DNA of 64,000 bases. Origin: Eledone cirrhosa. Taxonomy: Eukaryota. This document shows positions 8,583 through 15,018 of this stretch, in pieces; within the stretch, counting starts at the first letter, position 1; every line of letters starts with the position of its first letter. The notes under the pieces were generated by a model, which saw nothing but the letters and a program-made list of their open reading frames with translations, was not told where the DNA came from and made no database searches. A program made the translations under genes and the position numbers. The stretch covers positions 1-64,000 of the forward strand of contig CAXHJY010001102.1 of the NCBI GenBank assembly GCA_964016885.1, written 5' to 3'.

Positions 8583-11500
8583 TAAACGGAAAAAATGAAA
8601 CGATATTTCATTTCCCACTCTTAGTACGGCTGTTACTTAAATATAAGTATGTACACGTACATACATATATGTATACCGACGTACAGTAGTATGTATCTAT
8701 ATATATACATACATGCACACATATATATATGCACGTATGGATTCACCGAACATTTATTATAATGCTCGGTGTGTTTGTAAACAAACATCCCGTATTAAGC
8801 CGTAGTGTCTAGCAACCACCGTTGCTCGTTTGTTCAACACTGACAAAGGAACGCTGTACTAGTTTCAAGCTTGTTAGCTATCGTCAGCAACGTATACCTT
8901 CCTGCCAGATTGTTGAACGTATATACTTACCTTATGCATATTAACGGCTGAGTAGCCCAATATGCATATCGAGTGGGTTAATCGGCCGGGTGCACCGAAA
9001 ACGATAAACGGAAAAAATGAAACGATATTTCATTTCCCACTCTTAGTACGGCTGTTACTTAAATATAAGTATGTACACGTACATACATATATGTATACCG
9101 ACGTACAGTAGTATGTATCTATATATATACATACATGCACACATATATATATGCACGTATGGATTCACCGAACATTTATTATAATGCTCGGTGTGTTTGT
9201 AAACAAACATCCCGTATTAAGCCGTAGTGTCTAGCAACCACCGTTGCTCGTTTGTTCAACACTGACAAAGGAACGCTGTACTAGTTTCAAGCTTGTTAGC
9301 TATCGTCAGCAACGTATACCTTCCTGCCAGATTGTTGAACGTATATACTTACCTTATGCATATTAACGGCTGAGTAGCCCAATATGCATATCGAGTGGGT
9401 TAATCGGCCGGGTGCACCGAAAACGATAAACGGAAAAAATGAAACGATATTTCATTTCCCACTCTTAGTACGGCTGTTACTTAAATATAAGTATGTACAC
9501 GTACATACATATATGTATACCGACGTACAGTAGTATGTATCTATATATATACATACATGCACACATATATATATGCACGTATGGATTCACCGAACATTTA
9601 TTATAATGCTCGGTGTGTTTGTAAACAAACATCCCGTATTAAGCCGTAGTGTCTAGCAACCACCGTTGCTCGTTTGTTCAACACTGACAAAGGAACGCTG
9701 TACTAGTTTCAAGCTTGTTAGCTATCGTCAGCAACGTATACCTTCCTGCCAGATTGTTGAACGTATATACTTACCTTATGCATATTAACGGCTGAGTAGC
9801 CCAATATGCATATCGAGTGGGTTAATCGGCCGGGTGCACCGAAAACGATAAACGGAAAAAATGAAACGATATTTCATTTCCCACTCTTAGTACGGCTGTT
9901 ACTTAAATATAAGTATGTACACGTACATACATATATGTATACCGACGTACAGTAGTATGTATCTATATATATACATACATGCACACATATATATATGCAC
10001 GTATGGATTCACCGAACATTTATTATAATGCTCGGTGTGTTTGTAAACAAACATCCCGTATTAAGCCGTAGTGTCTAGCAACCACCGTTGCTCGTTTGTT
10101 CAACACTGACAAAGGAACGCTGTACTAGTTTCAAGCTTGTTAGCTATCGTCAGCAACGTATACCTTCCTGCCAGATTGTTGAACGTATATACTTACCTTA
10201 TGCATATTAACGGCTGAGTAGCCCAATATGCATATCGAGTGGGTTAATCGGCCGGGTGCACCGAAAACGATAAACGGAAAAAATGAAACGATATTTCATT
10301 TCCCACTCTTAGTACGGCTGTTACTTAAATATAAGTATGTACACGTACATACATATATGTATACCGACGTACAGTAGTATGTATCTATATATATACATAC
10401 ATGCACACATATATATATGCACGTATGGATTCACCGAACATTTATTATAATGCTCGGTGTGTTTGTAAACAAACATCCCGTATTAAGCCGTAGTGTCTAG
10501 CAACCACCGTTGCTCGTTTGTTCAACACTGACAAAGGAACGCTGTACTAGTTTCAAGCTTGTTAGCTATCGTCAGCAACGTATACCTTCCTGCCAGATTG
10601 TTGAACGTATATACTTACCTTATGCATATTAACGGCTGAGTAGCCCAATATGCATATCGAGTGGGTTAATCGGCCGGGTGCACCGAAAACGATAAACGGA
10701 AAAAATGAAACGATATTTCATTTCCCACTCTTAGTACGGCTGTTACTTAAATATAAGTATGTACACGTACATACATATATGTATACCGACGTACAGTAGT
10801 ATGTATCTATATATATACATACATGCACACATATATATATGCACGTATGGATTCACCGAACATTTATTATAATGCTCGGTGTGTTTGTAAACAAACATCC
10901 CGTATTAAGCCGTAGTGTCTAGCAACCACCGTTGCTCGTTTGTTCAACACTGACAAAGGAACGCTGTACTAGTTTCAAGCTTGTTAGCTATCGTCAGCAA
11001 CGTATACCTTCCTGCCAGATTGTTGAACGTATATACTTACCTTATGCATATTAACGGCTGAGTAGCCCAATATGCATATCGAGTGGGTTAATCGGCCGGG
11101 TGCACCGAAAACGATAAACGGAAAAAATGAAACGATATTTCATTTCCCACTCTTAGTACGGCTGTTACTTAAATATAAGTATGTACACGTACATACATAT
11201 ATGTATACCGACGTACAGTAGTATGTATCTATATATATACATACATGCACACATATATATATGCACGTATGGATTCACCGAACATTTATTATAATGCTCG
11301 GTGTGTTTGTAAACAAACATCCCGTATTAAGCCGTAGTGTCTAGCAACCACCGTTGCTCGTTTGTTCAACACTGACAAAGGAACGCTGTACTAGTTTCAA
11401 GCTTGTTAGCTATCGTCAGCAACGTATACCTTCCTGCCAGATTGTTGAACGTATATACTTACCTTATGCATATTAACGGCTGAGTAGCCCAATATGCATA

Positions 11501-11857
11501 TCGAGTGGGTTAATCGGCCGGGTGCACCGAAAACGATAAACGGAAAAAATGAAACGATATTTCATTTCCCACTCTTAGTACGGCTGTTACTTAAATATAA
11601 GTATGTACACGTACATACATATATGTATACCGACGTACAGTAGTATGTATCTATATATATACATACATGCACACATATATATATGCACGTATGGATTCAC
11701 CGAACATTTATTATAATGCTCGGTGTGTTTGTAAACAAACATCCCGTATTAAGCCGTAGTGTCTAGCAACCACCGTTGCTCGTTTGTTCAACACTGACTG
11801 ACAAAGGAACGCTGTACTAGTTTCAAGCTTGTTAGCTATCGTCAGCAACGTATACCT
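8583..11857 (-). mobile_element. Retrozyme-like tandem array, left arm: ~7.8 copies of a 422-bp unit, hammerhead sense on minus strand
   Basis: TAAACGGAAAAAATG recurs at 8583, 9005, 9427, 9849, 10271, 10693, 11115 and 11537 (period 422). The only difference seen between copies is a 4-bp TGAC duplication at 11795-11802. Each unit holds a hammerhead core on the minus strand. Confidence 0.85.
8851..8893 (-). ncRNA. Type I hammerhead ribozyme (also at 9273, 9695, 10117, 10539, 10961, 11383, 11809)
   Basis: Same motif on the minus strand; predicted cleavage between 8857 and 8856. Confidence 0.88.
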
Positions 11858-14800: not shown

Positions 14801-15018
14801 AGCGTTCCTTTGTCAGTGTTGAACAAACGAGCAACGGTGGTTGCTAGACACTACGGCTTAATACGGGATGTTTGTTTACAAACACACCGAGCATTATAAT
14901 AAATGTTCGGTGAATCCATACGTGCATATATATATGTGTGCATGTATGTATATATATAGATACATACTACTGTACGTCGGTATACATATATGTATGTACG
15001 TGTACATACTTATATTTA
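11858..15018 (+). mobile_element. Retrozyme-like tandem array, right arm: ~7.5 inverted copies of the same 422-bp unit
   Basis: Reverse complement of 8638-11798 (mirror sum 23656). Ends at ...CATACTTATATTTA, running into (TA)n. Confidence 0.85.
12231..12273 (+). ncRNA. Type I hammerhead ribozyme, short palindromic helix III (also at 12653, 13075, 13497, 13919, 14341, 14763)
   Basis: ACGTTG-CTGACGA-T AGCT AACA AGCT T-GAAA-CTAG-TA^CAGCGT. Helix I ACGTTG/CAGCGT extends through AAGG/CCTT and GTTCAACA/TGTTGAAC. Helix II AGCT/AGCT is closed by U.U. Helix III is palindromic ACTAGT. Cleavage triplet GUA. Confidence 0.88.

What the first reader, a model, noticed from the sequence alone, without database searches (positions are those of the whole stretch)
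8638..15018. 6.4-kb palindrome whose 59-bp centre is exactly the ribozyme core
Seen: arms 8638-11798 and 11858-15018 (3161 bp each) are mirror images with sense strands diverging. The spacer 11799-11857 is the complete hammerhead, preceded by a 4-bp TGAC duplication. Both arms start at the same base (GTCAGTG), 12 nt past the cleavage site and inside the 3' strand of extended helix I. Inference: the cDNA folded back or switched template on the helix I inverted repeat, so the ribozyme stem seeded the palindrome. Read-through from either side would give self-cleaving sense monomers plus about 3 kb of antisense RNA, a potential dsRNA substrate for ADAR or Dicer.
Basis: partly seen in the sequence, partly recalled or inferred. 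Interest (0 to 1): 0.82.

Follow-up and report, generated by a model that had tools for sequence, protein, structure and literature searches.

The report
Two-ended ribozyme retroelement insertion
This 6.4-kb mirror-image array is one young copy of an abundant 422-base repeat carrying a hammerhead self-cutting RNA motif; its relatives turn around at many other places, and their paired ends suggest that a Penelope-type enzyme likely copied one small, probably circular, RNA onto both sides of a single DNA cut.

Summary
The palindrome is real: 3161/3161 bp arms, no mismatch, a 59-bp centre holding a type I hammerhead, a TGAC duplication. It is a non-LTR retrozyme insertion (8582-15018) in (AT)n. 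Head-to-head inversion is family-wide. Across the sampled loci one arm ends at monomer position ~275 and the other at ~216 (102 such pairs, one 216/216, no 275/275). The 59-nt difference matches a Penelope 'tail'. Centres are scattered; this exact junction occurs once in the genome. In 68 position-sampled insertions, breakpoints are not enriched in helix I (13 of 136 ends, 18 expected), and 35 cannot be fold-backs from the 275 arm. So the stem did not seed palindromy. It may be a mild joining hot spot in long insertions (3 of 36 bracket the core, 0.4 expected). All 16 turns here share a near-private variant, pointing to one template. Best reading: twin target-primed reverse transcription of one circular RNA from two fixed starts, then end joining. 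A local fold-back remains possible. No reads or RNA were checked. The scan reported the same pattern earlier for other retrozyme families in this genome.

The parts
8540..8581 (.). left flank: (AT)n-rich half of a local minisatellite unit (insertion target)
   Evidence: joins with the right flank to give the unit seen intact at 15191 and 15385
8582..8637 (-). unmirrored outer extension of the left arm up to monomer position 275 (Penelope-type tail; 59 nt counted from position 216)
   Evidence: the same end followed by (AT)n has 3565 exact matches in the genome
8638..11798 (-). left (275-type) arm, mirrored part, 7.5 turns of the 422-nt monomer, 7 hammerhead cores starting at 8856-11388
11795..11802 (+). 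4-bp TGAC tandem duplication at monomer 13-16, present in the left arm only
11799..11857 (-). 59-bp unmirrored centre = 5'-most part of the left arm (monomer 380 to 16), holding the 8th hammerhead; predicted cut between 11815 and 11814
11857..11858 (.). head-to-head junction (monomer 380 joined to 12/13, 1-nt microhomology), unique in the assembly
11858..15018 (+). right (216-type) arm, 7.5 turns, 7 hammerhead cores starting at 12237-14769; ends at monomer 216 plus 3 nt shared with the target
   Evidence: 216-end motif has 1427 exact matches
12268..12689 (+). one unit-length monomer between two predicted cut sites (candidate circular RNA); folds at z = -8.1
12005..12005 (+). near-private variant G at monomer 160 (first right-arm turn shown); present in all 16 turns of both arms
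15019..15480 (.). right flank: (AT)n minisatellite continuing the unit broken at the left end; possible short (AT)n target duplication

Best explanation
This is a recent insertion of a non-coding hammerhead retrozyme with fixed outer ends in an (AT)n site, likely made when a Penelope-like reverse transcriptase/endonuclease primed both strands of one cut on the same, probably circular, 422-nt RNA. Shown: the arms, the fixed outer ends at monomer 275 and 216, their near-strict pairing across the family, scattered centres, and variants shared by both arms of one insertion. Inferred: one enzyme subunit starts at 275 and the other at 216, each runs about 7.5 times round the RNA, and the two cDNA 3' ends are then joined head to head by microhomology-type end joining, which would also leave the 4-bp duplication. 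The hammerhead sits in the centre because the left cDNA stopped about 55 nt further on than the right one. This is mostly chance, perhaps helped by stalling or annealing at extended helix I.
For: End pairing: of 80 loci anchored on the 275 end, 47 have an inverted arm; 42 end at 209-219, 2 at 192-196, 3 elsewhere, 0 at 275. Of 40 anchored on the 216 end, 33 have one; 27 end at 268-275, 1 at 216, 5 elsewhere or unresolved. Among long loci picked by similarity, 33 more are 275/216 pairs and none is a like-like pair. Arm lengths are uncorrelated (rho -0.11, n=68) and 35 of 68 cannot be fold-backs from the 275 arm; 19 of 68 fit neither direction without re-cutting. One template per insertion: arms of one locus differ by 2.5% against 4.7% between loci, lower in 42 of 46. 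Variants fixed in every turn of both arms occur in L175, L209, L212, L215, L222 and here; G160 is in 16 of 16 turns here and in only 2 other monomers, on another background. L069 alternates two monomer variants over about 10 turns. Ends are not enriched at the cut site (4 of 136 within 418-5). Junctions carry microhomology (>=3 nt in 15 of 44 junctions without insertion, 7% expected) and local templated duplications. The genome encodes long RT + GIY-YIG ORFs that end in (AT)n. PMC11167929 shows a Penelope protein nicking and extending both strands, with two RT starts that bound the tail.
Against: No RNA, circle or partner enzyme was observed. The monomer has no convincing match in 30 GIY-YIG loci. 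This locus has equal turn numbers and a 54-nt offset, which a fold-back also predicts; 4 of 22 long young loci are near-symmetric (0.9 expected, P=0.011), although 0 of 11 were in a second set. Shared variants could come from gene conversion between arms or from amplification after insertion. A hairpin intermediate re-cut at 216 and 275 would give the same ends. PMC11167929 saw no difference in start site between strands in vitro, so the strict pairing is not yet explained by that enzyme. A third or more of anchored loci show no second arm (33 of 80, 7 of 40; at least 5 of the 33 show a 10-20 nt 216-type stub by eye).
Confidence: 0.6

Rival explanations
1. One reading: one cDNA primed at 275 ran 7.6 turns, folded back on the helix I inverted repeat and copied itself, so the ribozyme stem seeded the palindrome.
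For: Equal turn numbers and R = L - tail - loop here; arms identical, with the same private variant. Both breakpoints lie in helix I strands. Long insertions show some excess at helix I: 11 of 48 ends against 6.4 (P=0.047), 9 of 48 at positions 12-33 (post hoc), and L023 has nearly the same centre with equal turns.
Against: The junction is unique. No helix I excess in 68 position-sampled loci (13 of 136) or pooled (24 of 184 against 24.4); second long set 5 of 24 against 3.2. L200 and L227 bracket the core with very unequal arms (1181/4410, 1964/682). The duplication is not mirrored, and a stem-register snap-back predicts 6 more mirrored bases. Fold-back does not explain why the copy stops at the family's second fixed end, 216.
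Confidence: 0.17
2. General hairpin model: rolling-circle cDNA switches template onto itself at any register, and the Penelope endonuclease then trims the two ends at 275 and 216 before insertion.
For: Explains one template per insertion and fixed ends. PMC8557442 suggests the tail comes from endonuclease resolution of an intermediate; PMC11167929 cites tail-dependent cleavage by the D. virilis enzyme.
Against: PMC11167929 maps the tail ends to RT start sites. Single-turn variants inside spans covered by both arms were not mirrored in the few loci inspected (L174, L212, L213), though later mutation would look the same.
Confidence: 0.1
3. A short inverted insertion was later expanded and homogenised as DNA (unequal exchange, arm-to-arm conversion), giving many identical turns without any circular template.
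For: Much longer diverged arrays exist (L180-L181, L231, L233). bioRxiv 10.64898/2026.07.22.740005 proposes local amplification. It would explain symmetry and shared variants.
Against: Long young insertions are about 99.7% identical to each other across chromosomes, leaving little time. Junction-proximal and outermost partial turns carry the same private variants as inner ones.
Confidence: 0.08
4. Assembly or library artefact (fold-back chimeric read, collapsed copy number).
For: Perfect identity, unplaced 165-kb contig, no reads examined.
Against: The flanks are not mirrored and rejoin into one local minisatellite unit. The two ends are the family's two different canonical ends. Over 100 like structures lie on several large scaffolds.
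Confidence: 0.05

Closest known systems
Metazoan non-LTR retrozymes (PMC7229834; bioRxiv 10.64898/2026.07.22.740005)
   Same: Short non-coding tandem monomer, one type I hammerhead with a short palindromic helix III per unit, thousands of dispersed copies, Penelope-like elements in the same genome.
   Different: Term searches of both texts found no inverted insertions described. Here most sampled insertions are head-to-head with two fixed, paired outer ends. Expression and circularisation were not tested here.
Penelope-like element insertions (PMC8557442; PMC11167929)
   Same: Inverted 5'-truncated copy, a tail at one end only, (TA)n targets, two fixed 3' ends.
   Different: No ORF; tail 59 nt rather than 30-40; many turns per arm; near-strict 275/216 pairing within one insertion; no sequence link to a particular autonomous family found.
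LINE-1 twin priming (recalled, not from a call)
   Same: Both target strands prime on one RNA and the two cDNAs are joined by microhomology, giving an inversion.
   Different: In LINE-1 the second priming site is variable and the two parts do not overlap. Here both starts are fixed and both arms cover the same sequence many times.

Membership tests
Non-LTR retrozyme | Short tandem monomers, each with a type I hammerhead core | tested here: met
   422-bp period, 15 exact cores; 402 of 417 motif matches in fetched loci keep the core letters. Rfam models did not match.
Non-LTR retrozyme | Non-coding, no LTR organisation | tested here: met
   No non-low-complexity open frame of 120 aa or more overlaps the array; it is monomers only.
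Non-LTR retrozyme | Dispersed, multi-copy mobile family | tested here: met
   2690 exact core matches, 3565 and 1427 exact end matches.
Non-LTR retrozyme | Transcribed, self-cleaves, accumulates as circular RNA | not tested
   No RNA data were obtained; only indirect genomic signs.
Penelope-like insertion signature | Inverted 5'-truncated copy next to the 5' end | tested here: met
   47 of 80 and 33 of 40 anchored loci.
Penelope-like insertion signature | Tail extension at one end only | tested here: met
   275 versus 216 ends, 59 nt; 69 mixed pairs against 1 like pair in position-sampled loci. Longer than the 30-40 bp in PMC8557442.
Penelope-like insertion signature | (TA)n target preference | tested here: met
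   Partner ends, which were not selected for it, are followed by (AT)n in nearly all loci; anchor ends were selected for it.
Autonomous Penelope-like element | ORF with RT and GIY-YIG endonuclease | tested here: not met
   None in the array; such ORFs occur elsewhere in the genome.
Non-autonomous derivative of a specific Penelope family | Sequence shared with the pLTR of an autonomous partner | tested here: inconclusive
   No convincing match in 30 GIY-YIG loci of 10596 candidates.

The most novel reading that the evidence does not exclude
Penelope-type enzymes work as an asymmetric dimer that primes both strands of one cut on a single circular ribozyme RNA, one subunit always at the tail end and the other always 59 nt further in, and copy it round and round. 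This one step would explain Penelope inverted copies, the one-sided tail and retrozyme tandem arrays, with the hammerhead's long helix I acting as an occasional stall and join point that leaves a ribozyme at the centre.
Probability: 0.45. Interest if true: 0.75.

Novelty: new variant of a known kind. Interest (0 to 1): 0.52.

Why it matters
How Penelope-like elements make their tandem/inverted insertions is called undefined in PMC8557442. That retrozymes are copied from circular RNA by Penelope enzymes is a proposal (PMC7229834). This family gives a countable genomic rule (one 275 end plus one 216 end, one template, free centre) that predicts what an in vitro reaction should produce. It also means the genome holds very many short perfect palindromes that could form double-stranded RNA if transcribed. 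The ribozyme-at-the-centre feature itself matters little.

Tried and rejected
Whole-window self-BLAST timed out. Rfam gave no hammerhead hit, only low-complexity miRNA matches. No sequencing reads were obtained, so copy number and junction are unverified. A source locus for the G160 variant: the only other carrier (L216) differs at further positions, so it was rejected as the source. An empty allele of the site: the right-flank search returned only this contig at full length and repeats elsewhere. Arm-length coupling: none overall (rho -0.11, n=68; 0.13, n=22); an excess of near-symmetric long loci (4 of 22) did not recur (0 of 11). A-to-I editing trace in templates: 2 of 7 locus-fixed variants are A>G, no signal. 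Autonomous partner: not found among 30 loci; a resemblance between the tail and the L184-family pLTR was not supported by BLAST. Rows left out of the n=68 set: 52 of 120 (40 without a second arm; L041, L112 gap over 40 nt; L059 arm too short to parse; L051, L062, L104, L139, L141, L144, L151, L155, L158 other or unresolved ends). One search used positions read, with four adjusted by hand for subfamily insertions or a templated insert. The 12-33 window was chosen after seeing the data.

Full report
OBSERVATION. The arms 8638-11798 and 11858-15018 are exact mirror images (3161 bp, 0 mismatches), built from a 422-bp unit. I number the unit from the base after the predicted GUA cut (window 12268-12689). 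The left arm is on the - strand and runs from monomer 380 (window 11857) out to monomer 275 (window 8582), with a TGAC duplication at 11795-11802. The right arm is on + and runs from monomer 12/13 to 216, plus 3 nt shared with the target. The 59-bp centre is therefore the 5'-most piece of the left arm. It holds CUGACGA, stem II, GAAA and CUAGUA; folding supports an extended helix I pairing monomer 361-391 with 1-25. The monomer folds far better than shuffles (z -8.1). There are 15 cores. Helix III is a palindromic stub, the form that PMC4209133 (passages read) says needs tandem partners. Rfam did not recognise the motif.

IS IT REAL? No reads were examined. Assembly evidence favours a true insertion. 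The flanks are not mirrored, and the left and right flanks rejoin into a minisatellite unit found intact at 15191 and 15385, with an (AT) run on both sides. The two ends are the family's two different canonical ends. Copy number remains unverified.

THE FAMILY. The 3.0-Gb genome holds 2690 exact core matches, 3565 exact matches to the 275 end followed by (AT)n and 1427 to the 216 end (the motifs differ in subfamily coverage). I took 80 loci in order along the largest scaffold anchored on the 275 end, and 40 anchored on the 216 end. Of the 80, 47 have an inverted second arm: 42 end at 209-219, 2 at 192-196, 3 elsewhere, none at 275. Of the 40, 33 have one: 27 end at 268-275, one at 216 (L144), 5 elsewhere or unresolved. 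That is 69 mixed pairs against 1 like pair. Long loci picked by similarity add 33 mixed pairs and no like pair. An inverted truncated copy, a tail at one end and (TA)n targets are the Penelope signature in PMC8557442 (passages). PMC11167929 (parts 1-2 of 4) shows a Penelope protein, predicted to be a dimer, that cuts and extends both strands and starts at two sites that bound the tail. It saw no strand difference in start site.

THE CENTRE. The window's junction occurs once in the genome. In 68 clean position-sampled insertions the 136 inner ends are spread over the monomer: 13 in helix I strands (18.0 expected), 30 in 358-25 (29.0 expected), none with both ends in helix I; 4 lie within 418-5 of the cut site. 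Arm lengths are independent (rho -0.11). In 35 of 68 the 216 arm reaches over 20 nt further 5' than the 275 arm, so it cannot be a copy of it; 19 fit neither fold-back direction. The two inner ends lie within 15 nt of each other modulo 422 more often than chance (12 against 4.8, P=0.003). Microhomology of 3 nt or more is enriched (15 of 44 junctions without insertion, 7% expected). 48 of 92 junctions show inserted bases; several copy adjacent sequence, and some are subfamily differences from my reference. This looks like microhomology-mediated joining of two ends (resemblance to polymerase theta joining is recalled, not tested). The TGAC duplication fits that class.

In 24 long, young junctions, 11 of 48 ends lie in helix I strands (6.4 expected, P=0.047), and L023 and L200 bracket the core as here; L200 uses an 8-nt helix I microhomology. 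A second set of 12 gave 5 of 24 (3.2 expected) and one more bracketing case, L227: 3 of 36 against about 0.4. Two of those three have very unequal arms, so they look like joins of independent ends. Near-symmetric arms, as here, were 4 of 22 (0.9 expected, P=0.011; two on the wrong side for fold-back) but 0 of 11 in the second set. Helix I may be a mild stall or annealing point; it is not needed.

ONE TEMPLATE. All 16 turns here carry G at monomer 160; only two other monomers in the genome do, on a different background. Locus-fixed variants in both arms also occur in L175, L209, L212, L215 and L222; in L209 the 216 arm is 2.7 times the 275 arm. Arms of one insertion are closer than arms of different ones in 42 of 46 loci (2.5% against 4.7%; age also contributes). 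L069 alternates two monomer types over about 10 turns, as a dimeric circle would give. Many identical turns of a private variant, with no source array found in the assembly, point to a circular template. Gene conversion or later expansion is not excluded.

MECHANISM. Shown: anatomy, paired fixed ends, free centre, shared variants. Inferred: a Penelope-type RT/endonuclease cuts (AT)n; both 3' ends prime on one retrozyme circle, at 275 and at 216; both run several turns; the cDNA ends are joined head to head. Candidate enzymes exist. GIY-YIG has 150 scored matches of 10596 candidates. L184 has a 938-aa frame with RT and GIY-YIG, L186 a 1096-aa frame with RT, and the L184 family ends in (AT)n. 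None of 30 such loci shares sequence with the monomer. Confidence 0.6; local fold-back 0.17; trimmed hairpin 0.10; later expansion 0.08; artefact 0.05.

CONSEQUENCES. Read-through in either direction gives about 3.2 kb of antisense first and then sense, so a long hairpin is possible and might compete with ribozyme folding (inference). No transcript evidence was obtained, and no A>G excess was seen among fixed variants (2 of 7).

LITERATURE AND NOVELTY. PMC7229834 (passages and Discussion) proposes circular templates and Penelope partners; the words inverted and orientation do not occur in it. bioRxiv 10.64898/2026.07.22.740005 (part 1 of 5, Discussion and term search) links retrozymes to pLTRs and does not describe inversions. 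Five searches (listings only for other papers) found no report of paired-end inverted retrozyme insertions or of twin priming by Penelope elements. The library lacks most subscription papers, and no supplements were read; the preprint's are closed and could bear on this. Earlier notes of this scan reached the same reading for 310- and 468-bp retrozyme families in this genome; these are not independent evidence. Verdict: a member of a known class with an insertion rule I did not find in print; the ribozyme at the centre is largely incidental. Interest 0.52.

Noticed in passing
L184:2300-7900, L185, L189, L191, L192: Penelope-like family with a C-x4-C-xx-C finger before GIY-YIG and a 938-aa frame. 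Copies share one 3' end in (AT)n, and the terminal repeat holds an atypical hammerhead-like motif with a palindromic helix III, seen by eye.
   Followed up: partly
L069 (G000:C1:49583700-49590000): 4.3-kb arm alternating two monomer variants over about 10 turns, as expected from a dimeric circular template.
   Followed up: partly
L177, L178, L179, L182, L031:7349-7790: Sister retrozyme family with the same hammerhead core, a longer (about 460-510 bp) period and similar ends.
   Followed up: no
L144: The only 216/216 inverted insertion seen.
   Followed up: partly
L180-L181, L231, L233, L236: Long (over 3.4 kb, one about 15 kb) diverged single-orientation arrays of the monomer, satellite-like.
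   Followed up: no
L210, L211, L213, L214, L218: Young subfamily with linked changes at monomer 330 (A>G) and 336 (T>C) in all turns; possibly a compensatory pair, not checked.
   Followed up: no
window 36516-39524 (-), 40782-43535 (-), 26011-26892 (-), 34177-34713 (-), 58319-58774 (+): Long open frames that look by eye like non-LTR retrotransposon proteins (1003 and 918 aa) and fragments; not scanned against families.
   Followed up: no
L186:9245, L189:1185, L192:7213-8145, L190:603, L193:8486, L115:2711: Other hammerhead motifs of unrelated sequence, one pair head to head in L192.
   Followed up: no
window 46441-47547: 65-bp minisatellite, 17 copies, 96% alike.
   Followed up: no
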